A stretch of 39,177 bases of DNA from Candidatus Portnoybacteria bacterium RIFCSPHIGHO2_02_FULL_39_12 (GCA_001819555.1 MHMZ01000032.1:20834-60010); one strand, 5' to 3'; numbered from the stretch's first letter, positions 3,267 to 38,566 are shown. The notes: a model not told the origin generated them from the letters alone. Numbers and translations are program-made.

Positions 3267-3283
3267 TTAGGGTCCGACCCTAA
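3267..3283. repeat. Solo half-copy of the GGGTCCGACCC palindrome family (TTAGGGT-CCG-ACCCTAA)
   Basis: A single arm that is itself self-complementary. It lies 4 nt after the stop at 3262 and 13 nt before the ATG at 3297. Confidence 0.8.
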
Positions 3284-3296
3284 CGAACTAAAGAAA

Positions 3297-4067
3297 ATGA
3301 GTTCAGAAAAACGTTTTGGTTACGAGTGGCATAAATACCAAGAGATAGACCCTAATTACGAGATTCAATTTCTTAAATGGATTTATCCGCTTAAGCCAAA
3401 AGATTTTAAAGGCAAAAAAATTTTAGACGCCGGTTGCGGCATGGGCCGCAATAGTTATTGGGCTTTAAAATACGGCGCTAAAGATTTAACCGCTTTTGAT
3501 TATGATAAACGGAGCGTTAAGGCCGCCGTAAAAAATTTAGCTTCTTTTAAAAATGCCCGAGTTGAATTCAAAAGCATTTATGAGATAGATTACAAAAATC
3601 AGTTTGATATTGTGTTTTGTCTCGGGGTGATTCATCATCTGGCCAATCCCCATTTGGCGATAAAAAATCTGATTCAATCAATTAAGCCCGGCGGCCTGAT
3701 TTTAATTTGGGTTTACGGCTATCAGGGTAATGTTTGGATAGTTAAATTTGTTAATCCCATTAGAAAAAATATCACTTCTAAACTGCCTTTGCCGCTGGTT
3801 CATTTTTTTAGTTATTTTCTTTCTTTGCCCTTATGGTTTTGGGTTAAAATTTTTAAAGGGCCGGGGCTATATCTTAGGCAGTTATCCGGCTTTAAGTTTT
3901 GGCATATCAGAAGCATTGTTTTTGACCAGCTGATTCCTGAAATTGCCAATTATTTTACCAAAGAAGAGGCCAAAAAATTATTAGCCGACTTTAATGAACT
4001 TAAAGAGATAGAGATTTACCCTGTCAATAACAACAGCTGGACTGTTTTAGGTCAAAAATATGATTGA
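3297..4067 (+). CDS. Class I SAM-dependent methyltransferase
   Basis: Motif I ILDAGCGMGRN. Post-motif LIQSIKPGGLILIWVYG. C-terminal hydrophobic segment. Confidence 0.85.
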   Translation: MSSEKRFGYEWHKYQEIDPNYEIQFLKWIYPLKPKDFKGKKILDAGCGMGRNSYWALKYGAKDLTAFDYDKRSVKAAVKNLASFKNARVEFKSIYEIDYKNQFDIVFCLGVIHHLANPHLAIKNLIQSIKPGGLILIWVYGYQGNVWIVKFVNPIRKNITSKLPLPLVHFFSYFLSLPLWFWVKIFKGPGLYLRQLSGFKFWHIRSIVFDQLIPEIANYFTKEEAKKLLADFNELKEIEIYPVNNNSWTVLGQKYD

Positions 4068-4962
4068 TAAAAAGAAAAAAATATTAAAAAATTTAGTTTG
4101 TCCCAACTGCTTTAAAGAATTAAACTTATTTTCTGATAAGTTGATTTGCGGCCATTGCCCAAAGGAATACCCCTTAATAGATAAAAGACCCTTTCTCTTA
4201 GATGAGTCGGGCCGGGGCTTTAAGGAATCAAGCAACGATATTTTAATCAATAAATTGAAAATTTTTTTTAAGAAATATCCTTTGATTTTTAATTTATTCT
4301 TTTATGTTTTCGGCGCTTCTTTAGTTGGGAAAAGTCCCAAAAAAGCGATTGAAGGAATCGGTTCTCATAAGCTCATTCTCAATTTAGGTTCCGGTATCAG
4401 AAAAATCAGAGAAGATGTGATTAATATTGATTTTTATCCGTTTAATAATGTTGATTTAATAGCTGATATTTCTCATTTGCCTTTTAAAGACAATTCAATT
4501 GAAGCCGTAATTAATGAATTTGTTTTAGAGCATATTAAAGAGCCGGAGAAAGTTATCGCTGAAATTTATCGAGTTTTAAGGCCCGGCGGTTTGATTTATT
4601 TGACCGCGCCCTTTTTAGTCAGTTTTCATTCTTCGCCTGATGATTATTGCCGCTGGTCAAAAAACGGCTTAAAAGAATTAATGAAAGAGTTTCAGGCAGA
4701 TGAAATCGGCATCAGGTCCGGGCCCACAGCTAGCCTTCTTTCAATTTTAAACGGCTGGCTGGCGCTTGTTTTGAGTTTTGGCTCTAAAACAATACAGCAG
4801 GTTTTATTGATGTTTTTGACAATTTTAACCAGCCCTTTTAAGGTTTTGGATTATTTTTTATCTAAACTGCCCAACGCGGAAAATATCGCCTTGGGTTTTT
4901 ATTATCTTGGCAGAAAGAAAGTTGAAGTGACACGGGGGCAGCCCCCAAGGCAGCAGGCCTGA
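4060..4962 (+). CDS. SAM-dependent methyltransferase (Methyltransf_11-like) with N-terminal Trm112-like Cys4 zinc ribbon and hydrophobic C-terminus
   Basis: CPNC...CGHC ribbon at the N-terminus. Motif I LILNLGSGIRK. LRPGGLIYLTAP. The start overlaps the upstream stop by 8 nt (ATGATTGA). The last ~11 codons and the stop codon lie inside the GC-rich hairpin at 4929-4981. Confidence 0.75.
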   Translation: MIDKKKKILKNLVCPNCFKELNLFSDKLICGHCPKEYPLIDKRPFLLDESGRGFKESSNDILINKLKIFFKKYPLIFNLFFYVFGASLVGKSPKKAIEGIGSHKLILNLGSGIRKIREDVINIDFYPFNNVDLIADISHLPFKDNSIEAVINEFVLEHIKEPEKVIAEIYRVLRPGGLIYLTAPFLVSFHSSPDDYCRWSKNGLKELMKEFQADEIGIRSGPTASLLSILNGWLALVLSFGSKTIQQVLLMFLTILTSPFKVLDYFLSKLPNAENIALGFYYLGRKKVEVTRGQPPRQQA

Positions 4963-4981
4963 TGGGGGCTGCCCCCGTGTC
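4929..4981. repeat. GC-rich perfect inverted repeat, 19-bp arms (GACACGGGGGCAGCCCCCA / TGGGGGCTGCCCCCGTGTC), 15-nt loop
   Basis: Read directly. Each arm contains its own palindrome, GGGGGC-A-GCCCCC. The TGA stop of the 4060 gene (4960-4962) lies in the loop. The next ATG is at 4993. Confidence 0.9.
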
Positions 4982-4992
4982 CATAAAGTAAA

Positions 4993-8114: not shown

Positions 8115-8128
8115 TTTTATGGAGAAAT

Positions 8129-10566: not shown

Positions 10567-12006
10567 ATGAAAAATAAAACAATCATTCGCAAGATATTTT
10601 CTTATTTGATAGTTTTTACCATTTTTTTCTTTTTAGGGAAAGGTTTGATTGAAAATTGGCAGAAGTTAAAAGAATACAATTTTTCTTTTAATTATTTTTA
10701 TCTAATTTCATCTTTTGTTTTTTTGATTCCGGGGATAGTCCTTCTGGGTTTTATTTGGAATGCGATTTTAAGGAGTTTAGAGCCGAATAAAAAACTGCCT
10801 TTTCTAAAGGCACTCTGGTTTTTTGTCTGCGGTTGGCTTTATCGTTATTTGCCCGGCGCGGTCTGGATGTATCTGGCCAGAATCTATTTAGGAGCTAAAG
10901 AGGGATTGTCCAAAAAAACTCTCACTTTGAGTGTTTTTTATGAAGCGGCTTTAGCCATTGCCTCGGCTTTTTTATTGTCAATTTTTCTTTTAGGCCTTGT
11001 TTTTGGTTCTAAGTTTTTAGGGCTAGTCCCTGATTTTTATATTCTTTTTCCTGTCTTGGCGATGGGGGCCGGTTTAGTTTTTATCCACCCGAAAATTTTT
11101 AATTTTTTTCTTAACCTTTTCTTAAAGCGAATTAAAAAAACAGAACTATTGACTGGTGATTTTTTAAGTTATTCGGCGGTGCTTAAAATTATTCTTTATT
11201 ATTTTATAAGTTATATTTTAATCGGCGCGGGATTTTTCTTTTTAGTCAGAAGCCTTGCTTATTTGCCGTTTTATGATATATTAGGGGCAATCGGTATTTA
11301 TATTTTAGCGTCTGTTTTAGGCACGCTGGCGGTTTTTGCGCCGAGCGGGCTCGGCGTCCGAGAGGCCTTTTTGGCGATATTTTTACAGCTTTATTTTCCT
11401 TTAAGTATTGCTACCCTGATTGCTTTATTGGCCAGAGTTTGGACTACTTTAGGCGAAATAACTATTTTCATGGGCCTTTATAGTTTTATGAATAAAAAAG
11501 ATTTTTTTAGAGTTTTGGCCCACTTTATTTTTAGAATCCGCCAATTTAATAATAGATGCCTGAAAAATCTCGCTGGCGATATTAGAAATAAAAGAATATT
11601 AGAAATAGGGAGCGGTCAGGGGGATTATTATTCGGCTAAACATTTTTTTGACAGTTCCAATGAATTTATCCAGTCTGATATTGTTGAGGGATACGGCCAT
11701 AAAATTATAGATGTCGTTCAGATGAATTACAAAAATGAATTTGATATTATTTTATCTTTGAGTGTTTTAGAACATATTTTTGATATTCATCAGGCCATTG
11801 AAAATATCTACCGGGCCCTCAGACCCGATGGACTCGCTGTCTTTTTTGTTCCCGGTTTTTATCCTCTTCACGGGGAATCTAATGATTACTGGAGATTTAC
11901 CGAACACTCTCTTAAAAGATTATTAAAAAAATTTAAAAGAATAAAAATTAAACATTCAGGCCTCAAACAATTTCCATTCGCTTATTACATAGAAGCGGTA
12001 AAATAA
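10567..12006 (+). CDS. Fusion protein: LPG-synthase-TM / 'flippase-like' (UPF0104, TIGR00374-type) membrane domain plus C-terminal class I SAM methyltransferase domain
   Basis: The N-terminal ~310 aa are polytopic and carry the family motif APSGLGVREA. The C-terminus has motif I ILEIGSGQG, then LSVLEHI and LRPDGLAVFFVPG. Confidence 0.7.
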   Translation: MKNKTIIRKIFSYLIVFTIFFFLGKGLIENWQKLKEYNFSFNYFYLISSFVFLIPGIVLLGFIWNAILRSLEPNKKLPFLKALWFFVCGWLYRYLPGAVWMYLARIYLGAKEGLSKKTLTLSVFYEAALAIASAFLLSIFLLGLVFGSKFLGLVPDFYILFPVLAMGAGLVFIHPKIFNFFLNLFLKRIKKTELLTGDFLSYSAVLKIILYYFISYILIGAGFFFLVRSLAYLPFYDILGAIGIYILASVLGTLAVFAPSGLGVREAFLAIFLQLYFPLSIATLIALLARVWTTLGEITIFMGLYSFMNKKDFFRVLAHFIFRIRQFNNRCLKNLAGDIRNKRILEIGSGQGDYYSAKHFFDSSNEFIQSDIVEGYGHKIIDVVQMNYKNEFDIILSLSVLEHIFDIHQAIENIYRALRPDGLAVFFVPGFYPLHGESNDYWRFTEHSLKRLLKKFKRIKIKHSGLKQFPFAYYIEAVK

Positions 12007-12083
12007 AGCGATTTCATAAATTAAGATAAGAGATTTTTAGAAAATATGAAACTATTAGTAATTATTCCCGCTTATAACGAAGC
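12002..12083 (+). repeat. 82-bp perfect direct repeat, copy A (leader plus first 38 nt of GT2 gene)
   Basis: Identical base for base to 13162-13243 (offset 1160). Identity ends at 12084 vs 13244. Confidence 0.95.
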
Positions 12084-12999
12084 GGATTCTATTGTTGAAG
12101 TAATTAAAAATATTCCTCAAAACATCAGGAGGATTGACCAGATTAATATTTTGGTGATTGATGACGGCTCAACTGATAAGACTGTTTTTAAGGTTAAATC
12201 AGAAACCAAGGCAACAGTTATTTCTCATCAGGGGAATAGGGGAGTGGGCGTCGCTTTTGGAACTGGTATTAGTTATGCCTTGGAGAATAGAGCTGACTTG
12301 GTTGTTAATATTGACGCTGATGGCCAGTTTAATCCTTTGGATATTCCTCAATTAGTTCAGCCAATTTTAAATAATCAGGCGGATTTTGTCACGGCCTCGC
12401 GATTTATTAAAAAAGACTTTATCCCTCAAATGCCGCGGATTAAATTATGGGGCAACCGGAGAGTGGCCAGCTTAATCAGTTGGCTGACCCGGGAGAAATT
12501 TTATGATGTTTCTTGCGGTTTTAGGGCTTATAATAAAGAAGCGCTTTTAAGTCTTAATTTATTCGGGCAGTTTACTTATACCCAAGAAGTTTTTCTGGAC
12601 TTGAGTTTTAAGGGATTAAGAATAAAAGAAATCCCGATTAAAGTGAGATATTTCCCTCAAAGGCGGTCAAGAGTTTATCAAGGAATTTTTCATTACGGCT
12701 TTAATACTTTAAAAATAATTCTCAAGACGCTGCGCGATTATCGGCCTTTCAGGTTTTTCGGCTCGATTGGTTTAATTATATTTTTTATCGGTTTAATTTT
12801 AGATATTTTTATGATGGCTTTTTATTTAAAGACCGGCGGCTTTACGCCCTATAAAGTAGTTGGTTTAACCGGCCTTTCATTAAATGTCATCGGTTTAGGG
12901 GTCTTATTTTTAGCTCTGATCGCCGATATGCTTTATCGTCTTCGGATAAATCAGGAAAAACTGCTTTATTATGAGAAAAAGAGACGATATTATTCGTAA
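12046..12999 (+). CDS. GT2 glycosyltransferase, GtrB/DPM1/ArnC-like polyprenyl-phosphate sugar synthase with C-terminal TM helices
   Basis: IIPAYNE, VIDDGSTDKT and the DxD region NIDADGQ. Two C-terminal hydrophobic helices, typical of GtrB-like enzymes. Confidence 0.9.
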   Translation: MKLLVIIPAYNEADSIVEVIKNIPQNIRRIDQINILVIDDGSTDKTVFKVKSETKATVISHQGNRGVGVAFGTGISYALENRADLVVNIDADGQFNPLDIPQLVQPILNNQADFVTASRFIKKDFIPQMPRIKLWGNRRVASLISWLTREKFYDVSCGFRAYNKEALLSLNLFGQFTYTQEVFLDLSFKGLRIKEIPIKVRYFPQRRSRVYQGIFHYGFNTLKIILKTLRDYRPFRFFGSIGLIIFFIGLILDIFMMAFYLKTGGFTPYKVVGLTGLSLNVIGLGVLFLALIADMLYRLRINQEKLLYYEKKRRYYS

Positions 13000-13028
13000 G
13001 GGTCCGACCCTCATGATGGTCGGACCCT
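12999..13028. repeat. GGGTCCGACCC palindrome family copy (11-bp stem, 8-nt loop)
   Basis: AGGGTCCGACC-CTCATGAT-GGTCGGACCCT, starting at the last base of the TAA stop of the 12046 gene. Confidence 0.9.
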
Positions 13029-13036
13029 AATGGAAA

Positions 13037-13129
13037 CGCTCGGCCGCTTCCAGCGGCGGCCTCGCTCAATACTCAGCGCGGTGCCCCGCCTTTTAGGCGG
13101 GGACCAAGCCGCCGCGCTTCCGCATGGTC
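13037..13129. other. Non-coding GC-rich structured island of unknown function
   Basis: About 90 nt, far more GC-rich than its surroundings. Hairpin CCCCGCC-TTTTA-GGCGGGG (13084-13102) is nested between GCGGCGGC (13053-13060) and GCCGCCGC (13108-13115). CGCTTCC occurs on both flanks. No plausible ORF. Confidence 0.6.
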
Positions 13130-13161
13130 AAAAAAGTGTAAACAATGCTAGAATTTCTTAT

Positions 13162-13243
13162 AAATAAAGCGATTTCATAAATTAAGATAAGAGATTTTTA
13201 GAAAATATGAAACTATTAGTAATTATTCCCGCTTATAACGAAG
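13162..13243 (+). repeat. 82-bp perfect direct repeat, copy B
   Basis: Identical to 12002-12083. Confidence 0.95.
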
Positions 13244-14181
13244 AAGAATCTATAGGATTGGTTATTAAAGAAATTCCTAGGCAGATAGAGGGAGTCAATA
13301 AAGTGGAAGTCTTAGTCATAGACGATGGTTCTGTTGATAAAACAGTTCAGTTGGCTAAAGGGGCAGGAGCTGATTATGTTTTCTCCAATAAGACAAACAG
13401 GGGACTCTCTTTTTCTTTTAAGAGAGGATTAGAAGAAGCTCTGAAATTAGGAGCAGATATTATCGTCAACACAGATGCTGATTTTCAATATGACCAATCA
13501 GAAATAGTAAAACTTATTCAGCCGATACTACAAGATAAAGCCGATTTAGTTTTTGGCGATAGGCAAATAAAGAAAATTGACCATATGAGCTTAAAAAATA
13601 AATACGGGAATATCATCGGCAGTTTTTTTCTTCGCTTAATCACCGGTTCTAATATTATTGATGCTTCTAGCGGTTTTCGGGCATTTTCTAAAAAATCAGC
13701 AATGCAATTTTCAATTTTTTCCGATCATACTTATACTCACGAAACAATTATTCAGGCCGTTGATAAAAGAATGCGCCTTGCTCAAATACCGGTAACCTTT
13801 AGAAAAAGACAAACAGGCCAATCGCGGCTAATTAGGGGATTTTTTAAGCATATAGAAAGATCGTTATTGGTTATAGTTAAAGTTGTTTTAATTTATAAAC
13901 CGCTTAAAGTGTTTTTTATCTTAGGCGGAGTCAATTTTTTATTGGGAATTTTGATCGGCTTGAGGTATTTATACTTTTTTTTCATTGGCGGCGCCGGCGG
14001 TCATATCCAGTCATTAATTTTAGCTTCTATTTTAATCAGTATTGGAGTCATTATTATTGTGATGGGCCTATTGGCAGATTTAATAAATACCAATAGGAAA
14101 ATTATTGAAGAAATACTTTTGCGATTACGAAAAAAAGATTATCAGAAAAAAAATTATAAAAGAGACAATCAAAAAGAATAA
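13207..14181 (+). CDS. GT2 glycosyltransferase, GtrB/DPM1-like polyprenyl-phosphate sugar synthase (diverged paralog of 12046)
   Basis: IIPAYNEE, VIDDGSVDKT and NTDADFQ. C-terminal TM helices and a lysine-rich tail. Confidence 0.9.
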   Translation: MKLLVIIPAYNEEESIGLVIKEIPRQIEGVNKVEVLVIDDGSVDKTVQLAKGAGADYVFSNKTNRGLSFSFKRGLEEALKLGADIIVNTDADFQYDQSEIVKLIQPILQDKADLVFGDRQIKKIDHMSLKNKYGNIIGSFFLRLITGSNIIDASSGFRAFSKKSAMQFSIFSDHTYTHETIIQAVDKRMRLAQIPVTFRKRQTGQSRLIRGFFKHIERSLLVIVKVVLIYKPLKVFFILGGVNFLLGILIGLRYLYFFFIGGAGGHIQSLILASILISIGVIIIVMGLLADLINTNRKIIEEILLRLRKKDYQKKNYKRDNQKE

Positions 14182-17118: not shown

Positions 17119-17678
17119 CTCGCGAACAAATTATCATTAAATATATCAAGGGCAAAGATGTTTTGGATATTGGCAGTGTCGGTCAGACCGATAAATATAA
17201 TCTGTGGGTTTTTTTGAAAAAGGAGGCCGGGCAATTGGTCGGCTTAGACACAGAGCCGTCTGATAATCCAGATATTATTCAGGGCAATATGGAAACTTAT
17301 AACTTTCATAAGCAATTTGATGTTATTTTAGCCGGCGATGTCTTAGAGCATATTGACAATCAGGGCCTTTTTTTAGACAACATTAGAAAACATCTTAAAA
17401 AAGACGGGTATTTTATTTTAACCACGCCTAATGCCAAGTGGTTCAATGTTTTGCTTAGGCCCAATCCGACTCATACTCTTTGGCATGATAAATATACGCT
17501 TTTTCATATTTTAAATAAATATGGATTTAAAGTAATCTTTTTTAGATATTATTATGGCAATAAGCCCCATTATAATTTTTTTAAAAAACTCCTTGTCTTA
17601 AGACAAGGAGTGATTTTAGTCGCCCAAGCTAAAGGGTCCGACTCTCGCGAGGGTCGGACCCTCATGGGTTTTCAATGA
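17115..17678 (+). CDS. Small class I SAM-dependent methyltransferase
   Basis: VLDIGSVGQ motif I, GDVLEHI and LKKDGYFILTTPN. The last ~30 codons are encoded by two palindromic elements. Confidence 0.7.
   Translation: MTREQIIIKYIKGKDVLDIGSVGQTDKYNLWVFLKKEAGQLVGLDTEPSDNPDIIQGNMETYNFHKQFDVILAGDVLEHIDNQGLFLDNIRKHLKKDGYFILTTPNAKWFNVLLRPNPTHTLWHDKYTLFHILNKYGFKVIFFRYYYGNKPHYNFFKKLLVLRQGVILVAQAKGSDSREGRTLMGFQ
17588..17611. repeat. 24-bp perfect palindrome ACTCCTTGTCTTAAGACAAGGAGT inside the 3' end of a CDS
   Basis: Read directly. It contains AAGGAG in the right arm and is followed by GATTTTAG. It lies 21 nt upstream of the family palindrome at 17633. Confidence 0.85.
17633..17662. repeat. GGGTCCGACCC palindrome family copy (one arm mismatch)
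   Basis: AGGGTCCGACTCTCGCGAGGGTCGGACCCT. It lies inside the 3' end of the 17115 CDS and 12 nt before the ATG at 17675. Confidence 0.9.
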
Positions 17679-26692: not shown

Positions 26693-27333
26693 TGTATATT
26701 TATCAACCGGATAGAGTTTTACTTAAACGACAAATTGAGAAATACAGTCATTATATTAAAGGAAAAGTATTAGACGTGGGAGCGGGTAAAACCAGCCGTT
26801 ATAGGGATTTATTTGATTGTCGGGAGTATATCAAGATGGATATTGAAAAAAGCGATAATATAGACATTGTTGGCCAGGCGGAGAATATTCCTTTTGAAAA
26901 TAATACCTTCGATTCTATTATTTGTACCCAAGTTTTAGGCGATGTTGAGGATATATTTGAGGCCATTAAGGAATGTTATAGGGTTCTAAAACCTAATGGA
27001 ATGATTTTACTAACCGAATCAATGGTAGAAGAAATACATAACAAACAAAGAGATTCTTGGAGGTTTACCAGATTAGGAATGAAGCGCCTTTTTAAAAAGG
27101 CAGGATTTAAGATTATTATTCTTAGCCGGAGGGGGGGATTTTTTTCAATAAAAGCGCAAATTAATACCCGCTATCTAATTGATAAATTTAATCTTTATTC
27201 TCATAAATATGGAAGAGTATTAAGCCCGTTTTTTAGAGCTTATAGCGAGTTTATGTTTTTTTTAGATAAAATAGACCAAAGCCAAGCGAATAAGAAGTTT
27301 GCTTTAGGTTGGTGTATAATAGCTAAAAAATGA
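26692..27333 (+). CDS. Class I SAM-dependent methyltransferase (Methyltransf_11-like)
   Basis: VLDVGAGKT and LKPNGMILLTESM. TAATG 1-nt overlap with the upstream stop. Confidence 0.85.
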   Translation: MYIYQPDRVLLKRQIEKYSHYIKGKVLDVGAGKTSRYRDLFDCREYIKMDIEKSDNIDIVGQAENIPFENNTFDSIICTQVLGDVEDIFEAIKECYRVLKPNGMILLTESMVEEIHNKQRDSWRFTRLGMKRLFKKAGFKIIILSRRGGFFSIKAQINTRYLIDKFNLYSHKYGRVLSPFFRAYSEFMFFLDKIDQSQANKKFALGWCIIAKK

Positions 27334-28115
27334 ATAAAACAATTATCACAACCAGCTGGGATGACGGGAGCAGGGAAGATTTAAGGGTGAGCCGGCTTTT
27401 AAATACTTTTAATCTTAAGGGCACTTTTTATGTCCTTCAAGCGCGCGAATTCCGGTCTTTAACCGATGAAGAGATTAAGGAATTAAGTAAAACCCAGGAA
27501 ATTGGGGCCCACACCCTAAATCATTACGACTTGACTAAGTTGAGCTTAGTTCGGGCCAAAAAGCAGATAATCGGTTCAAAAAAAAATTTAGAGGATATTT
27601 TACATAAACCAATAAAAATGTTTTGCTATCCGAAGGGGAAATATAATTCAGAAATTAAAGAAATAGTTCAGGAGGCAAATTTTTTAGGGGCCAGAACGAC
27701 AAAGGAATTTTCTTTTAGAGAGCCAAAAGATTTTTTTGAATTTGGCGCGGCTCTTCATGTTTATCCTTTTCCCTTGAGAAAAAGAGATAGAGAGCATTAT
27801 CATTTATCCCGATTTTTATTTCAGCCGTTAGGAAGAAAATTTTTTAAAATTTTAAAATTAGGCCTGCCATTTTCTTCTTTTTTAAACTGGCCGAATTTAG
27901 CCAAAGCTCTTTTTGATTATGTTTATAAAAACGGCGGAATTTACCATTTGTGGGGCCATTCTTGGGAAGTAGAGCGTTACGGCATGTGGCTGGAATTAGA
28001 AGATTTATTTAGATATATAAGCCGGAGAGAGAATGTTTTGTATTTGACTAATGGCCAGGCCTTAGAATTCTTTAGGGTCCGACCCTCGCTAGGGTCGGAC
28101 CCTCACAATCTATGA
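27330..28115 (+). CDS. Polysaccharide deacetylase (NodB-homology, CE4-like; ArnD-like role possible)
   Basis: Motif 1 TTSWDDGS (TFDDG-like). Motif 2 GAHTLNH (HxxxH). ATGA overlaps at both ends. The C-terminal 10 residues are encoded by the palindrome at 28074-28103. Confidence 0.75.
   Translation: MNKTIITTSWDDGSREDLRVSRLLNTFNLKGTFYVLQAREFRSLTDEEIKELSKTQEIGAHTLNHYDLTKLSLVRAKKQIIGSKKNLEDILHKPIKMFCYPKGKYNSEIKEIVQEANFLGARTTKEFSFREPKDFFEFGAALHVYPFPLRKRDREHYHLSRFLFQPLGRKFFKILKLGLPFSSFLNWPNLAKALFDYVYKNGGIYHLWGHSWEVERYGMWLELEDLFRYISRRENVLYLTNGQALEFFRVRPSLGSDPHNL
28074..28103. repeat. GGGTCCGACCC palindrome family copy
   Basis: AGGGTCCGACCCT-CGCT-AGGGTCGGACCCT. It lies inside the 3' end of the deacetylase CDS and 8 nt before the ATG at 28112. 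Confidence 0.9.
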
Positions 28116-29431
28116 GGATTTTGTTTTTACAAGACGATTTTCCGCCGGAAAGTTTAGGCGGCGCCGGGACGGTTGCTTTTAATTTGGCCCAAGAATTTAG
28201 AAAGAAAGGCCATCAGGTTTATGTTATTTGCGCGGTTAAAGATAAAGATAAGGCCGGCCAGCGGATTGAAGAAGGGTTAGCGGTTTTTCGGCTTTACGCT
28301 AATTATCACGAGCGCTGGCGCGCTTATTTAGGGCTTTACAATCCCCAAATAATCAATCAGATAAAAAAATTATTCAGCCAAATCCGGCCGGATATCGCTC
28401 ATTTTCACAACGTTCATTATTATTTATCCTATGCTTCCTTAAAAATAGCTAAAAAATACAGCCGGGCGGTTTTTCTGACGGCTCATGACGTAATGTCTTT
28501 TCATTACGGTAAATTGATAGAATTCATCAATCCAAATAATTTATCAATTCCTAAAACTTTTAATTATAGAATCACTCCTTTAAAACAAATCAAAAGATTT
28601 AAAAAAAGATACAATCCTTTGAGAAATATTATTATCAGGCATTATTTAAAAAAGGCCAATAAGATTTTCCCGGTTAGTTCCGCTTTAAAAGAGGCCCTAA
28701 AACAGAATGGGATAGAGAACACAGAAGTAATTTATAATGGCATAAACGCGGACGAATGGCAGATTGATGATAAATTGATAGATGATTTCAAAAAGAAATA
28801 CCGGCTTTTTAATAAAAAAGTGATTTTTATGATTGGCCGGTTAAGCGATTTAAAAGGCGGGGAGAAAATTATCAGGGCGATGGAAATAGTCAATCAAAAA
28901 ATACCAGAGGCGGTTTTAATGGCCGCGGGCGATAAACAAGGTTATGCTCAAAAGATGTTAAGCTTGGCTGAAAATAAAAATATCCAATTGCTTCTGACCG
29001 GATATTTACGAAGAGATGAATTAAAAGCGGCAACCCGGAGCAGTGATTTAGCGGTTGTTCCTTCTATTTGTTTTGATTCTTTTCCGACATCTAATTTGGA
29101 AGCCATGGCTTGTCAGAAGCCGGTTATCGGCACTTGTTTCGGGGGAACGCCGGAAATTGTTCTGGATAATATAACCGGCTATATTGTTAATCCTTTTAAT
29201 ATAGAAAAAATGGCGGAAAAAATCATAGCGCTTTTAAGCGATTCCCAAAAAGCCGAACAATTCGGACAAGCCGGCTATGAACGGGTCAAGAGATATTTTT
29301 CTCTTCAAGAACAAGCGGAAAAGATTCTTAAATATTATGAACAATTCCTAAGAGGTTCTTTAGGGTCAGACCCTCGCGAGGGTCTGACCCTAAAGAACCC
29401 TCAAGAAAAATATGCGCGTCCTCTTAATTAA
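28112..29431 (+). CDS. GT4-family (Glycos_transf_1) glycosyltransferase
   Basis: FPTSNLEAMACQKPVIGTCFGGTPEIVLDNITGYIV. N-terminus MRILFLQDDFPPESLGGAG. The C-terminal ~25 residues are encoded by the palindrome at 29354-29399 and its flank. Confidence 0.9.
   Translation: MRILFLQDDFPPESLGGAGTVAFNLAQEFRKKGHQVYVICAVKDKDKAGQRIEEGLAVFRLYANYHERWRAYLGLYNPQIINQIKKLFSQIRPDIAHFHNVHYYLSYASLKIAKKYSRAVFLTAHDVMSFHYGKLIEFINPNNLSIPKTFNYRITPLKQIKRFKKRYNPLRNIIIRHYLKKANKIFPVSSALKEALKQNGIENTEVIYNGINADEWQIDDKLIDDFKKKYRLFNKKVIFMIGRLSDLKGGEKIIRAMEIVNQKIPEAVLMAAGDKQGYAQKMLSLAENKNIQLLLTGYLRRDELKAATRSSDLAVVPSICFDSFPTSNLEAMACQKPVIGTCFGGTPEIVLDNITGYIVNPFNIEKMAEKIIALLSDSQKAEQFGQAGYERVKRYFSLQEQAEKILKYYEQFLRGSLGSDPREGLTLKNPQEKYARPLN
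29354..29399. repeat. GGGTCCGACCC palindrome family copy: 46-bp perfect palindrome with a compensated arm substitution
   Basis: GGTTCTTTAGGGTCAGACCCTCG|CGAGGGTCTGACCCTAAAGAACC. Arms read GGGTCAGACCC / GGGTCTGACCC instead of GGGTCCGACCC / GGGTCGGACCC. Confidence 0.95.
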
Positions 29432-30854
29432 TCCGCCCAGATTTAACGAAGTTTTGGCCGATAACCCGTCTTTTATTGACGAAGAACGGGGGTTTAATCC
29501 GCCCTTGGGCTTGCTTTACATAGCCGGTTATTTAAAAAAATATAGCGGGCATCGGGTTTTTTGTTTAGACGCTCAAGTAGAAGGTCTAAATTACAATAAA
29601 GGGTTTAAAAAAAGAATAGAAGCGATAAGCCCGGATGTCGTTGGCATGACCGTGATGACTTTTACTTTGATTGACGCTTTAAAAACGATTGAATTAATCA
29701 GAGAAGCGGAAGAAGGGCTTAATAAAAAAATTATTATTGTTTTAGGGGGGCCTCATGTTCATTTATTCCCCAAAGAGACAATTCAATTAAAGGGTGTTGA
29801 TTTTATAACCAAAGGAGAAGGCGAGCGGCCTTTTTTTAATTTACTGGAAGCCCTTGAAGGACGCGGTCAATTAGCCGATGTTAAGGGCTTGGCTTATCGG
29901 GAAAAAGACGTAATTATTGATAATCCGGTCGGCGATTTTATTGAAAATTTGGACGAATTGCCTTTTCCGGACAGAAATTTATTGCCAATTGAAAAATATA
30001 ATTCAATTTTGGGCCACGGCCGAATTGTGACAACGATGTTTACTTCGCGGGGCTGTCCTTTTAAATGCGCCTTTTGCGACCGGCCTCATTTGGGCAAAAG
30101 ATTTAGAGCCAGAAGCGCCAAAAATGTGGTTGATGAAATGGAAGAATGTCTTAAATTAGGCATTGAAGAGATTTTAATTTATGACGATACTTTTACCGTT
30201 AACCGGCAAAGAACAATTGATATTTGCGACGAAATTCTTAAAAGGGGATTAAAGTTTATTTGGGATATCCGGGCCCGGGTTGACACGGTTGATGAAGAGG
30301 TCTTAAAAAAACTAAAGCGGGCCGGCTGTCAAAGGATTCATTTTGGAGTTGAGGCCGGCACAGAGAAAATTTTAAAGGTCTTAAATAAAGGGATTCATTT
30401 AAATCAGATAGAAAACGCTTTTAGGTCAGCTAAAAAAGCTGGCCTTGAGACATTGGCTTATTTTATGATTGGGGCGCCGACCGAGACCAAAGAAGATATT
30501 TTAGAGACGATTAAATTTGCCAAAAAAATAAAACCGGCTTATGCTCATATCACTATTTTAACCCCTTATCCGGCCACCGCTATCTATTATCAGGCCTTAG
30601 CCCAAGGGGTAATTCAGAGTGATTATTGGCGCGCCTTTGCCAGCCAGCCGGAAAAAGGCGTGGTGACCCGATATTGGGAAAAAGAATTAACCAGAGAGGA
30701 ATTATTTTATTTTTTGAATAAATTTTATAAGGAGTTTTACGGCCGGCCGGCTTATCTTATCCGGCAGATATTAAAAGTTCGTTCTTTTGACGATTTGAAA
30801 AGAAAAGTAAGAGCTGGTTTAAAGGTATTAAACATCAGGGTCCGACCCTCATGA
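29412..30854 (+). CDS. Cobalamin-binding-domain (class B) radical SAM enzyme, paralog 3
   Basis: SRGCPFKCAFC and VLGGPHVHLFPKE. 480 aa. The stop codon lies in the centre of the palindrome at 30837-30866. Confidence 0.85.
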   Translation: MRVLLINPPRFNEVLADNPSFIDEERGFNPPLGLLYIAGYLKKYSGHRVFCLDAQVEGLNYNKGFKKRIEAISPDVVGMTVMTFTLIDALKTIELIREAEEGLNKKIIIVLGGPHVHLFPKETIQLKGVDFITKGEGERPFFNLLEALEGRGQLADVKGLAYREKDVIIDNPVGDFIENLDELPFPDRNLLPIEKYNSILGHGRIVTTMFTSRGCPFKCAFCDRPHLGKRFRARSAKNVVDEMEECLKLGIEEILIYDDTFTVNRQRTIDICDEILKRGLKFIWDIRARVDTVDEEVLKKLKRAGCQRIHFGVEAGTEKILKVLNKGIHLNQIENAFRSAKKAGLETLAYFMIGAPTETKEDILETIKFAKKIKPAYAHITILTPYPATAIYYQALAQGVIQSDYWRAFASQPEKGVVTRYWEKELTREELFYFLNKFYKEFYGRPAYLIRQILKVRSFDDLKRKVRAGLKVLNIRVRPS

Positions 30855-30866
30855 GGGTCGGACCCT
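30837..30866. repeat. GGGTCCGACCC palindrome family copy, 30-bp perfect palindrome
   Basis: AGGGTCCGACCCTCA|TGAGGGTCGGACCCT. The central TGA (30852-30854) is the stop of the 29412 gene. It ends 15 nt before the ATG at 30882. Confidence 0.95.
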
Positions 30867-32294: not shown

Positions 32295-32330
32295 AAATTT
32301 TTTGCCAAAGGTCTCTAGCGGTTAATTTTA

Positions 32331-32377: not shown

Positions 32378-32385
32378 CTTAAGAA

Positions 32386-33816: not shown

Positions 33817-33831
33817 TCAAAAATAATAACG

Positions 33832-33862
33832 TAAATTAACGTAATTCAATTACGTTAATTTA
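33832..33862. promoter_or_regulatory. 31-bp perfect AT-rich palindrome with ACGT cores; candidate operator or weak hairpin
   Basis: TAAATTAACGTAATT-C-AATTACGTTAATTTA, with a third direct TAACGTAA half-site just upstream (33828-33835). It ends 7 nt before the ATG at 33870. Confidence 0.4.
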
Positions 33863-33869
33863 GATTAGT

Positions 33870-35288: not shown

Positions 35289-35297
35289 ATTCTCATT

Positions 35298-36263: not shown

Positions 36264-36266
36264 AAA

Positions 36267-37139
36267 ATGATAGGGATGTTATTAGCTTTTTTTGCCGGGC
36301 TTTCTTATTCAGCTAGGGATGCCTTTAGCAAAAGAGCTTTAAAAAACTTAGATGAATACGTGACTGCTTGGGCTCTTAGGTTTTTTGCCTTGCCATTAAT
36401 TATAGTGTTGTTATTTAGCTTTGAAATGCCGGAAGTTAAGCCGGCTTTCTGGTGGTGGTTAGTCATTGTCACGATAATAGATATTATAATTATGGTAATT
36501 TTTATGAAAGCCGTTAAGATTTCTGACCTTTCATTAGTTATTCCGATACTTGCTTTTACGCCTTTATTTATTTTAATTATTTCTCCTTTTTGGATTCACG
36601 AGCTGCCAAATATCTATGGTATTATTGGTATAGTTTTAGTGGTTATTGGCGCCTATATTTTAAATATTAAGGAAAAAAATAAAGGTTGGTTATTTCCCTT
36701 AAAAGCATTGTTAATTAATAAAGGTTTGCGCCTAATGTTTTTCGCTTCTTTTTTAATGGCTATAACCACCATTATTGACAGAGTAGCGATTGAGAATTCA
36801 TCGCCAATTTTTTATCTGATTTTTATTCATCTATTGTATGTCTTGATGTTTTTGCCGATTGTTTTGTATCGGCTGAAAGGCAAAATAAAATCAACTTTTA
36901 TTTTTAAGAACATCAAATTAATGTTGCCAGTCGGCCTATCTAGCGGATTTTTTTTGCTTTTTCATATGTTAGCTATTCCCTTGACATATGTGTCCTATGT
37001 TTCAGCCATTGAAAAGCTAAGTATTATTATCAGCGTTATATTCGGCTATTTTATTTTTAAGGAGAGAAATATAAAGGGACGTTTAACTGGCGCAGTTATT
37101 ATGGTTTTAGGGATTTTGTTTATAATATTAGGTAGATGA
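36267..37139 (+). CDS. EamA/DMT-superfamily transporter
   Basis: 290 aa with about 10 TM helices in two similar halves and small hydrophilic loops. In glycan loci such proteins can act like ArnE/F-type lipid-linked sugar flippases (inference). Confidence 0.65.
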   Translation: MIGMLLAFFAGLSYSARDAFSKRALKNLDEYVTAWALRFFALPLIIVLLFSFEMPEVKPAFWWWLVIVTIIDIIIMVIFMKAVKISDLSLVIPILAFTPLFILIISPFWIHELPNIYGIIGIVLVVIGAYILNIKEKNKGWLFPLKALLINKGLRLMFFASFLMAITTIIDRVAIENSSPIFYLIFIHLLYVLMFLPIVLYRLKGKIKSTFIFKNIKLMLPVGLSSGFFLLFHMLAIPLTYVSYVSAIEKLSIIISVIFGYFIFKERNIKGRLTGAVIMVLGILFIILGR

Positions 37140-37200
37140 TATTTAAAATTAAGTTTAGTTAACAAAGTTAAATGGAGATAAAAACATACTAAGGGAGTAT

Positions 37201-37599
37201 ATGAGCATAGATAAAGAACATATTCAAAAAGAAGAAGAACAATGGAGAAAAATTATAGCCGTTGGAAATCAAGACGCAGGCATGGTTTTGATTTATGACC
37301 AAAAACTATGCGCTTTTGCGCATGAAATAGGCGCGGCGCTTGAAAAGAAAATAACTTTTGATTATATTTTCGCAGCCTCTAGGCTAATAGAAAGGATCAA
37401 TGTGCTTTTAAGTAAATTGCCTAAAGAAAAATTTGAGACTGTGGTTGGGATATTTTTAAATATTAAACAACGTTTAAAAGAAGAGGTGATACAAGGAAAA
37501 ACCGCTCAAAGAAAGAAGGCCTTAAATTCTTTTCCAGAAGAAATTCATCAGGCCAGCCATAAACTTTGTGATGAGCTGGAAAAAAGATTTTGTAAATGA
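37201..37599 (+). CDS. Hypothetical soluble, helical 132-aa protein
   Basis: Good SD (AAGGGAG, 5 nt upstream of the ATG). No TM segment and no recognisable motif. Immediately followed by a terminator-like hairpin. Confidence 0.55.
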   Translation: MSIDKEHIQKEEEQWRKIIAVGNQDAGMVLIYDQKLCAFAHEIGAALEKKITFDYIFAASRLIERINVLLSKLPKEKFETVVGIFLNIKQRLKEEVIQGKTAQRKKALNSFPEEIHQASHKLCDELEKRFCK

Positions 37600-37601
37600 T
37601 G

Positions 37602-37636
37602 TTCGGTAATTTTTTGGAAAATTGACCGAATCTTTT
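37602..37636 (+). terminator. Candidate rho-independent terminator
   Basis: 12-bp stem with one bulge (TTCGGTAATTTT / AAAATT(G)ACCGAA), 4-nt loop TTGG, followed by TCTTTT. It starts 3 nt after the TGA at 37597-37599. Confidence 0.5.
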
Positions 37637-37656
37637 AAATCTTTTATGCTGAAGTT

Positions 37657-38532
37657 ATGTTAAAAGACGAAATAATTTATAGGCGGGCAGTGAGCATTGT
37701 GATTCCTGCCTACAATGAGGAGTCAAGAATCGGAGCCGTGCTTAATGATTTGTTAGCTATGATTAAGTCGTGGAATATAGAGTGTGAAATTATTGTGGTT
37801 GATGACGGTTCAAAGGATAAAACCGCCCAAATCGCCGGGGGATTTGACGTTCAATTGGTTCAACATAAGCAGAATAAAGGATACGGCGCCTCTCTTAAAA
37901 CCGGAATTCGGCAAGCCCGCTATAATATTATTGGCATCGCTGACGCGGACGGCACTTATCCGGTTGAGCGCGTCCCCGAGCTGGTTCGTTTTATTGGTGA
38001 ATATGATATGGCGGTCGGCGCGAGAGTTGGCAAAAACGTCAAGATGCCTTTATTTAGGCGGCCGGCCAAGTGGCTTTTAAACAAATACGCCAATTATCTT
38101 GTTCAAGAAAAGATACCAGACCTTAATTCCGGTCTGCGGGTTTTTAAAAAAGATGTCTTTGAAAAATTCAGAAGCATTCTGCCGAACGGTTTTTCTTTTA
38201 CCACTACCCTTACTTTGGCCTTATTAAGCAATGATTATCAGGTTAGATACATACCGATTGATTATTTTGAAAGAGGCGGCAAATCAAAAATCAGGCCGTT
38301 CCGCGATACCGTCAATTTTTTTACTTTAATCACTAAAACCTCGCTCTATTTTAATCCCTTGAGGGTTTATATGCCCATTGCGCTTTCGCTTTTGGGTTTT
38401 GGCGCCATCTCTTTTGGCTATGATATATTCGTTTTGCAAAACATAACCGACCGGACAATGGCGCTTTTTTTATGGGGCGTTCAATTAGGGGTCATCGGTC
38501 TTTTAGCTGATATGATGAGCCATCGGAGATAA
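37657..38532 (+). CDS. GT2 glycosyltransferase, GtrB/DPM1/ArnC-like polyprenyl-phosphate sugar synthase
   Basis: VIPAYNEE, VVDDGSKDKT and IADADGTY. C-terminal TM helices. Confidence 0.9.
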   Translation: MLKDEIIYRRAVSIVIPAYNEESRIGAVLNDLLAMIKSWNIECEIIVVDDGSKDKTAQIAGGFDVQLVQHKQNKGYGASLKTGIRQARYNIIGIADADGTYPVERVPELVRFIGEYDMAVGARVGKNVKMPLFRRPAKWLLNKYANYLVQEKIPDLNSGLRVFKKDVFEKFRSILPNGFSFTTTLTLALLSNDYQVRYIPIDYFERGGKSKIRPFRDTVNFFTLITKTSLYFNPLRVYMPIALSLLGFGAISFGYDIFVLQNITDRTMALFLWGVQLGVIGLLADMMSHRR

Positions 38533-38566
38533 ATTAGGGTCCGACCCTTAAGGGTCGGACCCTAAT
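38533..38566. repeat. GGGTCCGACCC palindrome family copy, 34-bp perfect palindrome
   Basis: ATTAGGGTCCGACCCTT|AAGGGTCGGACCCTAAT. It starts immediately after the TAA at 38530-38532 and ends 11 nt before the ATG at 38578. Confidence 0.95.

What the first reader, a model, noticed from the sequence alone, without database searches (positions are those of the whole stretch)
3267..38566. Seven-copy GC-rich palindrome family (TTAGGGTCCGACCCT - loop - AGGGTCGGACCCTAA) placed precisely at gene junctions
Copies: 3267-3283 (half copy), 12999-13028, 17633-17662, 28074-28103, 29354-29399, 30837-30866 and 38533-38566.

The 11-nt arm cores are essentially invariant, while the central loop varies (CTCATGAT, CGCG, CGCT, CATG, TTAA). 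Each arm is itself self-complementary (AGGGT-CCG-ACCCT). The RNA or DNA could therefore fold as one long hairpin or as two short ones.

Every copy sits at the 3' end of a + strand gene. In 6 of 7 cases the right edge is only 8-15 nt upstream of the next start codon, which is where a Shine-Dalgarno would normally lie. Those downstream genes have no visible SD. Genes without the element do have one (AGGAGGG before 1847, GGAG before 8129, AAGGGAG before 37201).

The element is far more GC-rich than the background. This resembles REP/BIME-type elements, but the strict junction placement inside coupled operons suggests a role. Possibilities are mRNA processing or stability, control of translational coupling, intra-operon attenuation, or protein binding.
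Basis: seen in the sequence. Interest (0 to 1): 0.72.

Follow-up and report, generated by a model that had tools for sequence, protein, structure and literature searches.

The report
Mini REP palindromes in a groundwater bacterium
The GC-rich palindromes are real, but they are most likely small selfish repeats (REP/REPIN type) spread by a tyrosine transposase family common in ultra-small Patescibacteria, and they sit at gene ends mainly because insertions are tolerated there.

Summary
All seven copies are at the stated coordinates. The arm GGGTCCGACCC (up to 1 mismatch) gives 24 strand-matches against 0.14 expected. The unit is a 13-nt odd palindrome, AGGGTC-N-GACCCT. Six copies are inverted doublets of 28-46 nt and one is a singlet.

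The same doublet occurs in more than 116 genome loci from many phyla. In 10 of them it flanks a ~215-aa HUH/Tyr protein, in 9 within 70 nt and usually on both sides. That protein matches Pfam Y1_Tnp, and its best NCBIfam match is REP-associated tyrosine transposase (RAYT). This RAYT family is very large in Patescibacteria, and its genes carry short RGGNN-N-NNCCY palindromes upstream.

So the window holds REP/REPIN-like (TIRYT-type) repeats. Junction placement is strongly biased but not strict. Two further doublets just upstream of the window lie in-frame inside GT4 glycosyltransferase linkers. Four window copies overlap the upstream ORF's 3' end. Related operons lack them.

The Shine-Dalgarno argument fails: 27 of 30 genes lack an SD whether or not a palindrome is nearby.

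I did not find the RAYT gene of this genome. Effects on the mRNA are plausible but untested.

Verdict: a new member of a known kind, of moderate interest.

The parts
3267..3283 (.). REP singlet TTAGGGTCCGACCCTAA (one 13-nt odd palindrome plus TT/AA flanks). It lies 5 nt after the stop of the B12-radical SAM gene 1847-3262 and 13 nt before the ATG at 3297.
   Evidence: small hairpin of -7.8 kcal/mol, z -1.35
12999..13028 (.). REP doublet whose right arm has decayed (ATGGTCGGACCCT). Its first base is the last A of the TAA stop of GT2 gene 12046-12999. A 178-nt spacer follows.
   Evidence: (I18); hairpin -26.2 kcal/mol
17633..17662 (.). 30-nt REP doublet (left arm GACTC variant). It lies in-frame inside the last 15 codons of methyltransferase ORF 17115-17678 (tail ...KGSDSREGRTLMGFQ*). 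The ATGA overlap with the next gene (17675) is kept.
   Evidence: (I19); hairpin -27.9 kcal/mol
28074..28103 (.). 30-nt REP doublet in-frame inside the 3' end of polysaccharide deacetylase ORF 27330-28115 (tail ...RVRPSLGSDPHNL*). The ATGA overlap with GT4 gene 28112 is kept.
   Evidence: hairpin -26.7 kcal/mol
29354..29399 (.). 46-nt perfect palindrome, the A/T-centred subfamily (GGGTCAGACCC-TCGCGA-GGGTCTGACCC with 8-nt extensions). It lies inside the 3' end of GT4 ORF 28112-29431. It encodes part of a C-terminal extension of about 26 aa that is absent from paralogues and orthologues. Its 31-nt core is identical to the repeat upstream of a RAYT gene in metagenome locus L162.
   Evidence: (I2); hairpin -41.9 kcal/mol
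30837..30866 (.). 30-nt REP doublet. The TGA in its TCATGA centre is the stop codon of B12-radical SAM gene 29412-30854 (tail ...RVRPS*). It ends 15 nt before the ATG at 30882.
   Evidence: (I5); hairpin -27.0 kcal/mol
38533..38566 (.). 34-nt perfect palindrome (doublet with a 2-nt spacer, TTAA centre). It starts 1 nt after the TAA of GT2 gene 37657-38532 and ends 11 nt before the ATG at 38578.
   Evidence: (I10); hairpin -29.5 kcal/mol
4929..4981 (.). Doublet of a second family with the same architecture but a different core: GGGGGC-A-GCCCCC ... GGGGGC-T-GCCCCC. It has 19-nt arms and a 15-nt spacer and spans the stop of gene 4060-4962. It was not part of the finding and is probably a sister REP family.
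   Evidence: (I6); -52.5 kcal/mol, z -8.1; further copies at L222 7312-7342, L126 20442-20474 and L126 15084-15108

Best explanation
The palindromes are REP-type repeats: short, non-autonomous mobile DNA.

**Anatomy.**
- The unit is a 13-nt odd palindrome, AGGGTC-N-GACCCT. On single-stranded DNA it can form a 5-bp stem with a 3-nt loop.
- Most copies are inverted doublets (C-centred arm, 2-4 nt spacer, G-centred arm).
- A doublet looks like a REPIN, or like the two ends of a RAYT/IS200-type element with the interior deleted.

**How they spread (inferred).**
- They belong to the repeat class that flanks a large family of HUH/Tyr (Y1) transposase genes. These are RAYT/TIRYT-like proteins with subclass 2.1 motifs, and they are very common in Patescibacteria.
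- By analogy with E. coli TnpA-REP and IS200/IS605 TnpA, such an enzyme would bind the hairpin on single-stranded DNA and cut and rejoin it. Copies would thereby spread in trans.

**Why they sit at gene ends.**
- This genome is about 98% coding, so most insertions would be lethal or harmful.
- Copies survive where they do little harm: between cistrons, in the last codons of a gene, and in flexible protein linkers.
- All four coding copies preserve an open reading frame, and three of them are exactly 30 nt (10 codons).

**Side effect (inferred, not shown).** Once transcribed, the doublets form very stable hairpins at cistron ends. As with REPs in E. coli, these may protect upstream mRNA or impede ribosomes near the stop and start codons.
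For: **Shown.**
1. The motif is far above chance in the window.
2. The same doublet occurs in more than 116 loci of species-representative genomes, multi-copy in many lineages.
3. Unsupervised clustering of all ORFs in those loci gave one recurrent neighbour, a ~215-aa protein present in 10 loci.
4. That protein has the HUH motif PNHFHLL and the Tyr motif YIHLNP. It matches Pfam PF01797 Y1_Tnp. Its best NCBIfam match is NF047646, REP-associated tyrosine transposase.
5. In 9 of those 10 loci the motif is within 70 nt of the gene, usually on both sides, which is a REPtron-like arrangement. L129, L138 and L162 show the same.
6. Of 77 further RAYT loci from metagenomes, 42 have a perfect odd palindrome within 90 nt upstream of the ATG. 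Control windows give 11%. The cores follow RGGNN-N-NNCCY, and GGGTC-N-GACCC is one of the commonest.
7. 113 of 137 doublets have complementary centre bases, so the two arms are inverted copies.
8. The window's A/T-centred copy shares an identical 31-mer with the repeat upstream of the RAYT in L162.
9. Copies lie in-frame in coding sequence: GT4 linkers at L123 2133 and L222 5067, where orthologues carry unrelated linker residues.
10. One copy produces a C-terminal extension.
11. These behaviours match published REP behaviour: proximity to 3' ends, supplying stop codons, in-frame intragenic copies, and repeats inside the transposase gene (PMC3733652 section 15; PMC6006769 section 12).
12. Similar glycan operons in related species lack the junction copies.
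13. No match in 2.9 million viral contigs.

**Inferred.** Catalysis by a RAYT, the single-stranded DNA mechanism, and any RNA effect.
Against: - I did not find the RAYT gene of this genome. About 67 kb of it was seen. Three candidate RAYTs turned out to lie on other contigs or in other lineages. Activity in this genome is therefore unproven, and the copies could be orphans.
- The canonical 5' GT[AG]G foot of classical REPs is absent. The window copies have TTAG, TAAG, AAAG or TCAG.
- Doublets of 28-46 nt are much shorter than described REPINs (about 100 bp, 10.1101/2021.07.10.451892).
- The RAYT subclass that matches by motifs (2.1, Bertels group 1) is reported as not associated with REPs (PMC6006769).
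- No presence/absence polymorphism (an empty site) was seen among near-identical strains.
- The GT4 linker copy adds only about 1 residue relative to orthologues, so it is not a simple 30-nt insertion.
- All ten copies seen lie within roughly 50 kb of one glycan-synthesis cluster. None lies in the next 10 kb. A locus-specific role is therefore not excluded.
Confidence: 0.77

Rival explanations
1. Selected intercistronic RNA hairpins. The palindromes would be kept at cistron boundaries because the hairpin stabilises upstream mRNA segments, directs processing, or tunes translational coupling and stoichiometry in the long glycan operon.
For: - The hairpins are very stable (-26 to -42 kcal/mol, z down to -8.3).
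- All 7 window copies lie in the 5% of positions near a stop codon (P about 1e-9) and on the transcribed strand of a co-directional operon.
- Three copies start within 5 nt after the stop. In E. coli, REPs closer than 16 nt to a stop lower translation (cited in PMC12306157).
- In-frame copies keep the ATGA overlaps with the next gene.
Against: - Similar glycan operons in related species work without them.
- Copies also occur mid-gene in GT4 linkers and, in other genomes, inside unrelated genes.
- The same sequence flanks transposase genes in many phyla.
- Spacers are often palindromic to the centre, which suggests DNA-level inverted duplication rather than a selected RNA loop.
- Two arms show uncompensated substitutions.
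- The SD argument fails.
- This may still be a real secondary effect of the inserted repeats.
Confidence: 0.12
2. Double-stranded DNA operator sites. Each 11-bp palindrome GGGTC-N-GACCC would bind a dimeric regulator or nucleoid protein that controls the glycan cluster.
For: - The half-sites are symmetric with a free central base.
- Paired sites show a fixed 17-bp spacing (15 bp in one copy).
- The copies cluster in one biosynthetic locus.
Against: - The sites lie at 3' ends and inside genes, not at promoters.
- The central bases of the two arms are complementary in 113 of 137 doublets. Independent duplex sites would not require that.
- The same motif is dispersed in unrelated contexts in many phyla and next to RAYT genes.
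- No regulator gene recurs beside it. Only the transposase family does.
Confidence: 0.03
3. Intrinsic terminators or attenuators inside the operon.
For: They are GC-rich stems. Two copies (17633, 30837) pass a lenient terminator-like scan.
Against: - No copy has a real U-tract. The tails are CATGGGTTTT, TATATTTCCC, CACAATC and TAATGAA.
- Three copies are translated as part of ORFs that overlap the next gene's start.
- Terminator-like hits in the region are not above shuffles (28 against 20.2 +/- 5.5).
Confidence: 0.03
4. Recognition sites of a GIY-YIG or other nuclease (centre TCNGA) or of a site-specific recombinase that shuffles glycan-gene cassettes.
For: - An 88-aa GIY-YIG gene lies just upstream of the window (L124 7756-8022).
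- From memory, TCNGA is the site of the GIY-YIG enzyme Hpy188I.
- The cluster holds many paralogous cassettes, and the two GT2 genes share a duplicated 5' region.
Against: - Only 1 of 116 motif loci carries a GIY-YIG ORF, so there is no enrichment.
- No recombinase recurs near the motif.
- The paralogue boundaries do not coincide with the palindromes, except at 12999.
Confidence: 0.02

Closest known systems
REP / REPIN - RAYT systems (E. coli TnpA-REP and BIMEs; Pseudomonas REPINs)
   Same: - A short palindromic unit of about 13-14 nt, present in many copies.
- Units paired in inverted orientation, so they fold either separately or as one hairpin.
- Mostly extragenic and close to the 3' ends of co-directional genes.
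- The same repeats flank a single HUH/Tyr transposase gene.
   Different: - No GT[AG]G foot.
- Doublets of 28-46 nt with 2-4 nt spacers, instead of about 100 bp with variable spacers.
- Often perfect palindromes through the centre.
- The associated protein is only distantly related to E. coli TnpA-REP. The CPR profile does not reach PDB 4ER8, and the proteobacterial member reaches it only at E = 0.02.
- The host is a Patescibacteria genome.
- The cognate gene was not located in this genome.
TIRYT / TIRtrons (Di Nocera et al. 2013, PMC3733652), equivalent to TnpA-Y1 subclass 2.1 / Bertels group 1 (Quentin et al. 2018, PMC6006769)
   Same: - Protein motifs NH[YF]H, FQ, Y[IV]HLNP and an SS tail, with a length of about 210-235 aa. 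These match the subclass 2.1 row of Table 1 in PMC6006769.
- The flanking inverted repeats can be self-complementary, can be repeated in the genome and can be organised as dimers.
- The published TIR motif GGGGWSAS fits the GGGGTCAG start of the proteobacterial copies found here.
   Different: - Quentin et al. report no REP-like sequences for subclass 2.1. Here the flanking repeats are short hairpin-forming palindromes that are also dispersed.
- The window's own copies (AGGGTCCG) do not fit GGGGWSAS.
- I assigned the subclass from motifs, not with the authors' profiles.
Intragenic REPs and Rickettsia palindromic elements (RPEs)
   Same: In-frame residence in protein-coding genes at linkers and termini, adding short peptides (here GSDP..., RVRPS......GRTL) without destroying the ORF. 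Di Nocera et al. list many such REP-decorated genes, including DNA repair genes. Here they are RecG, PriA, DNA ligase, TGT and GT4.
   Different: RPEs are 100-150 bp and restricted to Rickettsia. Here the insert is 30 nt (10 codons), and in the GT4 linker it replaces the linker rather than lengthening it.
IS200/IS605 ends and their MITE-like derivatives
   Same: Subterminal hairpins recognised by a Y1 transposase on single-stranded DNA. A doublet equals a left end plus a right end without the gene. In L138 the RAYT has a C-centred unit on the left and a G-centred unit on the right, in the same order as the window doublets.
   Different: The RAYT-like genes appear to be single-copy chromosomal genes rather than multi-copy insertion sequences. 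No tnpB is present, and no defined target-site signature was seen.

Membership tests
REP/REPIN-RAYT (REPtron) system | Short hairpin-forming palindromic unit, repeated many times in one genome | tested here: met
   There are 7 copies in the window and 10 in about 67 kb of this genome. The arm search gives 24 strand-matches against 0.14 expected. Only part of the genome could be inspected.
REP/REPIN-RAYT (REPtron) system | Units paired in inverted orientation (REPIN/BIME-like doublets) | tested here: met
   6 of 7 window copies are inverted doublets. Across genomes, 113 of 137 doublets have complementary centre bases.
REP/REPIN-RAYT (REPtron) system | Predominantly extragenic, close to the 3' ends of genes | tested here: met
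   7 of 7 window copies lie in the 5% of positions around stop codons. Exceptions exist: there are mid-gene in-frame copies, as also described for classical REPs (PMC3733652).
REP/REPIN-RAYT (REPtron) system | Conserved 5' GT[AG]G tetranucleotide at the foot of the hairpin | tested here: not met
   The window copies have TTAG (x4), TAAG, AAAG and TCAG at the foot. GTAG occurs in a few relatives, for example the L129 3' flank and L108.
REP/REPIN-RAYT (REPtron) system | A cognate HUH/Tyr transposase gene flanked by the same repeats | tested here: inconclusive
   Met in other genomes: 9 of 10 genome loci, plus L129, L138 and L162. Not found in the roughly 67 kb of this genome that could be read. 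Three candidates proved to be from other contigs or lineages. The whole assembly could not be searched.
REP/REPIN-RAYT (REPtron) system | Transposase binds and cleaves the repeat on single-stranded DNA | not testable with these tools
   This needs biochemistry. Only the catalytic motifs HUH (NHFH) and Y (YIHLNP) are shown to be conserved.
TIRYT / TnpA-Y1 subclass 2.1 | Protein signature NHVH or NH[YF]H; W[EQ] or FQ; YIELNP or Y[IV]HLNP; SS tail; median length about 238 aa | tested here: met
   Alignment A1 shows PNHFHLL, LFQG, YIHLNP and SSY at 208-235 aa. The proteobacterial member L025 shows NHIHLL, LWQG and YIELNP. The comparison is with Table 1 of PMC6006769, by motif only.
TIRYT / TnpA-Y1 subclass 2.1 | Flanking inverted repeats sharing GGGGWSAS | tested here: inconclusive
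   GGGGTCAG in the high-GC loci fits. The window's AGGGTCCG and the other centre variants do not. The published figure with the sequences is not held.
Intrinsic (Rho-independent) terminator | GC-rich stem followed directly by a U-tract | tested here: not met
   No copy has a U-tract. Only 2 pass a lenient scan, and the region total is not above shuffles.
Any curated RNA family (Rfam 15) | Match at gathering score | tested here: not met
   There were no matches in the window or in five related loci.

The most novel reading that the evidence does not exclude
RAYT subclass 2.1 (Bertels group 1, 'TIRYT') is described as lacking REPs. It may in fact drive an overlooked mini-REP system.

- The units would be 13-nt RGGNN-N-NNCCY hairpins, usually seen as doublets of about 30 nt.
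- The system would be pervasive in Patescibacteria and share the core GGGTC-N-GACCC with Proteobacteria and other phyla.
- The elements would routinely settle in-frame in protein linkers and C-termini (peptides GSDP, RVRPS, GRTL) and at the ends of tightly coupled cistrons.
- In that way they would reshape proteins and operon junctions in ultra-small, roughly 98%-coding genomes.
Probability: 0.4. Interest if true: 0.55.

Novelty: new member of a known kind. Interest (0 to 1): 0.38.

Why it matters
It explains a striking sequence feature without invoking a new regulatory device, and it corrects the Shine-Dalgarno inference.

If the wider reading holds, it extends REP-transposase systems to streamlined Patescibacteria genomes, where repeats are thought to be scarce. 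It would link a RAYT subclass reported as REP-less to a dispersed repeat family. It would also show that 30-nt palindromes can be absorbed in-frame into enzymes, for example GT4 interdomain linkers.

The motif and the RAYT profile could serve as annotation aids. Gene callers currently extend ORFs through these repeats.

Tried and rejected
- **GIY-YIG link** (centre TCNGA, and a small GIY-YIG gene at L124 7756-8022). Only 1 of 116 motif loci has such an ORF, so I rejected it.
- **Rfam.** No match at gathering score in the window or in related loci. No tRNA genes in the window.
- **Literature search for the exact 11-mers.** Only irrelevant hits. No paper links RAYT or REPIN with Patescibacteria.
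- **Terminator reading.** No U-tracts.
- **SD displacement.** Not specific to palindrome-adjacent genes.
- **Finding this genome's RAYT.**
  - P0008/L129 is from Rifle-type groundwater but lies on a different contig and has G-first repeats.
  - P0029/L215 is from another site.
  - A search with the L138 RAYT returned named relatives only from Levybacteria, Daviesbacteria and Curtissbacteria, and no exact match.
- **Empty-site evidence.** Sister-strain contigs carry the same copies, with one point change inside a repeat. No presence/absence polymorphism was found.
- **Phage carriage.** No hit in viral contigs.
- **Archaeal occurrence.** The 'Pacearchaeota' locus L012 is the same locus as a Patescibacteria MAG (L054) and encodes a bacterial-type prepilin peptidase. 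The 'Bathyarchaeia' contig has no diagnostic genes. I make no claim about archaea.
- **PDB by sequence.** Only weak hits, to ISDra2 TnpA and to 4ER8.

Full report
**1. Observation**

- GGGTCCGACCC with up to one mismatch gives 24 strand-matches in the window against 0.14 expected from shuffles.
- The inverted-repeat search recovers the doublets at 12999, 17633, 29354, 30830 and 38533. The copy at 28074 comes from the motif search and direct reading.
- Reading the sequence shows one singlet (3267-3283) and six inverted doublets. Each arm is a 13-nt odd palindrome, AGGGTC-N-GACCCT.
- The centre is C in the left arm and G in the right arm. In the 46-nt perfect palindrome at 29354-29399 the centres are A and T.
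- Two arms carry single uncompensated substitutions (13017 and 17634).
- The spacers (TCATGA, TCGCGA, TTAA) mostly continue the palindrome through its centre.
- The window is about 36% GC.
- As RNA, each doublet folds into one hairpin of -26 to -42 kcal/mol (z -4.6 to -8.3). The singlet is unremarkable.
- The region is 100% identical in assemblies from several independent samples, so the palindromes are not assembly artefacts.

**2. Context**

Nearly all genes are on the + strand. They form a cell-envelope glycan cluster:
- asparagine synthase;
- seven B12-binding radical SAM enzymes;
- many SAM methyltransferases;
- GT2, GT4 and GT9 glycosyltransferases;
- PMT_2, YfhO and LPG_synthase_TM membrane proteins;
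- a carbamoyltransferase and a deacetylase.

The window is part of contig MHNB01000015.1 of NCBI assembly GCA_001821655.1. Near-identical sister-strain contigs come from assemblies labelled groundwater metagenome. Close homologues are named Patescibacteria or Parcubacteria. Coding density is 97.8%.

**3. What the repeat is associated with**

They come from Gammaproteobacteria, Burkholderiales, Planctomycetota, Omnitrophota, many Patescibacteria and others, often multi-copy per genome.
- I clustered all ORFs of these loci all-against-all. One family stood out: a ~215-aa protein in 10 loci of very different taxa.
- It matches Pfam Y1_Tnp (IS200-like).
- Its best NCBIfam match is REP-associated tyrosine transposase. 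The proteobacterial member reaches the curated cutoff. The Patescibacteria members score about 40 bits, below the cutoff.
- HUH (PNHFHLL) and the catalytic-Tyr motif (YIHLNP) are invariant.
- In 9 of the 10 loci the palindrome lies within 70 nt of the gene, usually on both sides.
- A profile search found at least 8000 clusters at E <= 1e-10, which is the cap. The few hits that carry a source name are labelled Patescibacteria, Levybacteria or Roizmanbacteria.
- I fetched 80 metagenomic loci encoding this protein. Of the 77 with enough upstream sequence, 42 have a perfect odd palindrome within 90 nt upstream of the ATG. Control windows give 11%.
- The cores follow RGGNN-N-NNCCY: AGGTC.GACCT 8, AGGTT.AACCT 6, GGGTC.GACCC 5, AGGCC.GGCCT 5.
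- The repeat core therefore varies with the transposase, and GGGTC-N-GACCC is one common allele.
- L138 has a C-centred unit to the left of the gene and a G-centred unit to the right, in the same order as the window doublets.
- L162 carries, upstream of its RAYT, a 31-mer identical to the core of the window's 29354 copy.
- Repeat units also sit in-frame inside the RAYT genes themselves. The peptide GSDP occurs in 37 of the 120 listed proteins. The literature describes this for another RAYT subclass (PMC6006769, section 12).

**4. Placement relative to genes**

Within the window the bias is strong. All seven copies fall in the 5% of positions around stop codons (P about 1e-9).

The placement is not strict, however.
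- Three copies are wholly inside the upstream ORF's last codons. One supplies the stop codon.
- The GT4 protein encoded at 28112-29431 has an extra C-terminal tail of about 26 residues, encoded by the palindrome, that paralogues and orthologues lack.
- Just upstream of the window, two more doublets lie in-frame in the interdomain linker of GT4 genes (L123 2133-2162 and L222 5067-5094). At L123 2133, orthologues at 66% identity have unrelated linker residues of almost the same length.
- A related species has an AAGGTCCGACCTT doublet at the equivalent linker of another GT4 gene.
- In other genomes the doublet lies inside TGT, PriA, ATP-dependent DNA ligase and RecG.
- Similar glycan operons in related species have ATGA-type overlaps and almost none of these repeats.
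- The 8-15 nt distance to the next start is what results from placing about 30 nt into junctions that are otherwise -25 to +15 nt wide.
- Only 3 of 30 genes have an SD-like motif (0 of 6 next to a palindrome, 3 of 24 elsewhere). The SD argument fails.
- No copy has a U-tract.
- No Rfam family matches.

**5. Mechanism**

*Shown:*
- sequence identity with the repeats that flank RAYT-like genes;
- inverted-pair architecture;
- tolerance in coding sequence only where an open reading frame is preserved.

*Inferred from what is known of IS200/IS605 TnpA and E. coli TnpA-REP (cited in PMC6006769 and PMC8266576):*
- The Y1 enzyme recognises the small hairpin on single-stranded DNA, cleaves it and rejoins it, spreading the repeats in trans.
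- Selection in a 98%-coding genome then leaves copies only at cistron ends, C-termini and linkers.

*Also inferred:* the transcribed hairpins may stabilise upstream mRNA or hinder ribosomes close to stop codons, as reported for E. coli REPs lying fewer than 16 nt from a stop (PMC12306157).

**6. Comparison with known systems**

- The anatomy matches the REPIN definition: two inverted REPs, each a palindrome of about 14 bp (10.1101/2021.07.10.451892). It is far more compact, at about 30 nt against about 100 bp, and it lacks the GT[AG]G foot.
- By motifs and length the protein matches TnpA-Y1 subclass 2.1 (Bertels group 1, TIRYT) in Table 1 of PMC6006769.
- That paper reports no REPs for this subclass.
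- Di Nocera et al. (PMC3733652) describe TIRYT genes flanked by inverted repeats that share GGGGWSAS. Some of those repeats are self-complementary, repeated and dimeric. GGGGTCAG in the high-GC loci fits that motif. The window's AGGGTCCG does not.
- Proximity to 3' ends, donation of stop codons and in-frame intragenic copies are all described for REPs in PMC3733652 (section 15).

**7. Limits**

- I did not find the RAYT of this genome. About 67 kb of it could be read, and three candidate genes proved to be from elsewhere.
- No empty-site polymorphism was seen among strains.
- The archaeal attributions of two loci are doubtful.
- RNA-level effects are untested.

**8. Verdict**

- This is a new member of a known kind (REP/TIR repeats of RAYT/TIRYT transposases).
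- Some novelty lies in host range, compactness, in-frame residence and the link to a subclass reported as REP-less.

Noticed in passing
window 4929-4981; also L222 7312-7342, L126 20442-20474, L126 15084-15108: A second palindrome family has the same architecture but a different core: GGGGGC-A-GCCCCC ... GGGGGC-T-GCCCCC. The window copy has 19-nt arms (-52.5 kcal/mol) and spans the stop of gene 4060-4962. One copy lies in-frame inside a GT4 gene. One singlet sits between convergent genes. It is probably a sister REP family with its own transposase.
   Followed up: partly
window 3235, 7259, 16150, 17101, 23207, 28252, 30741, 30974, 38060: The octamer GGCCGGCC occurs 9 times against 0.47 expected from shuffles, mostly inside coding sequence of a 36% GC genome. 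It is unexplained. It could be a third tiny palindromic repeat or a codon-context effect.
   Followed up: partly
window 1740-1846: A perfect 35-nt tandem repeat (3.1 copies, AACCCGCCAAAATTTCAAAGAAATTTAGGAGGGTA) lies upstream of the radical SAM gene at 1847. The NCBI and one ENA assembly (L124, L125) have one unit fewer. A related copy lies upstream of the GIY-YIG gene in L124.
   Followed up: partly
window 13029-13161 and 12001-12117 / 13162-13278: The two GT2 paralogues (12046-12999 and 13207-14181) share a duplicated 5' region (91% identity over 119 nt). Between them lies a stretch of about 130 nt, visibly GC-rich by eye, with a hairpin CCCCGCC-TTTTA-GGCGGGG. It has no Rfam match and no convincing ORF.
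   Followed up: no
L124 7756-8022 (about 170 nt upstream of window position 1): An 88-aa stand-alone GIY-YIG nuclease-family gene lies inside the glycan cluster. I tested it as a candidate partner of the TCNGA-centred palindrome and found no enrichment (1 of 116 loci).
   Followed up: yes
L137 2319 and 2592; L138 3524 and 3794; L040 2847: Single repeat units (TAGGGTCSGACCCTA) sit in-frame inside the RAYT genes themselves, at two recurrent positions, one of them just after the YIHLNP motif. They encode GSDP. 37 of the 120 listed family members contain GSDP.
   Followed up: partly
L123 2133-2162; L222 5067-5094; L219 5109-5136 and L220 5087-5116: The interdomain linker of GT4 glycosyltransferases (between GxDxxxF and the hhhhxGR strand) hosts a repeat doublet in three different GT4 genes from two species. 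In L222 it sits next to a unit of another family (GGAGGTT-C-AACCTCC). Where orthologues were aligned (L123 copy), linker length is almost unchanged, so the repeat replaces the linker rather than lengthening it.
   Followed up: partly
L129 10387; L167 1036: The conserved RAYT motif RVGPLFQG is itself encoded by GGTCGGACC, which is the repeat core. This may be coincidence or a clue to the origin of the repeat.
   Followed up: no
L012 202-232 and L054 2932-2961: A MAG labelled Pacearchaeota and a Patescibacteria MAG share the same locus: a bacterial-type prepilin peptidase with the doublet at its 5' end. This suggests mis-binning of the 'archaeal' contig.
   Followed up: partly
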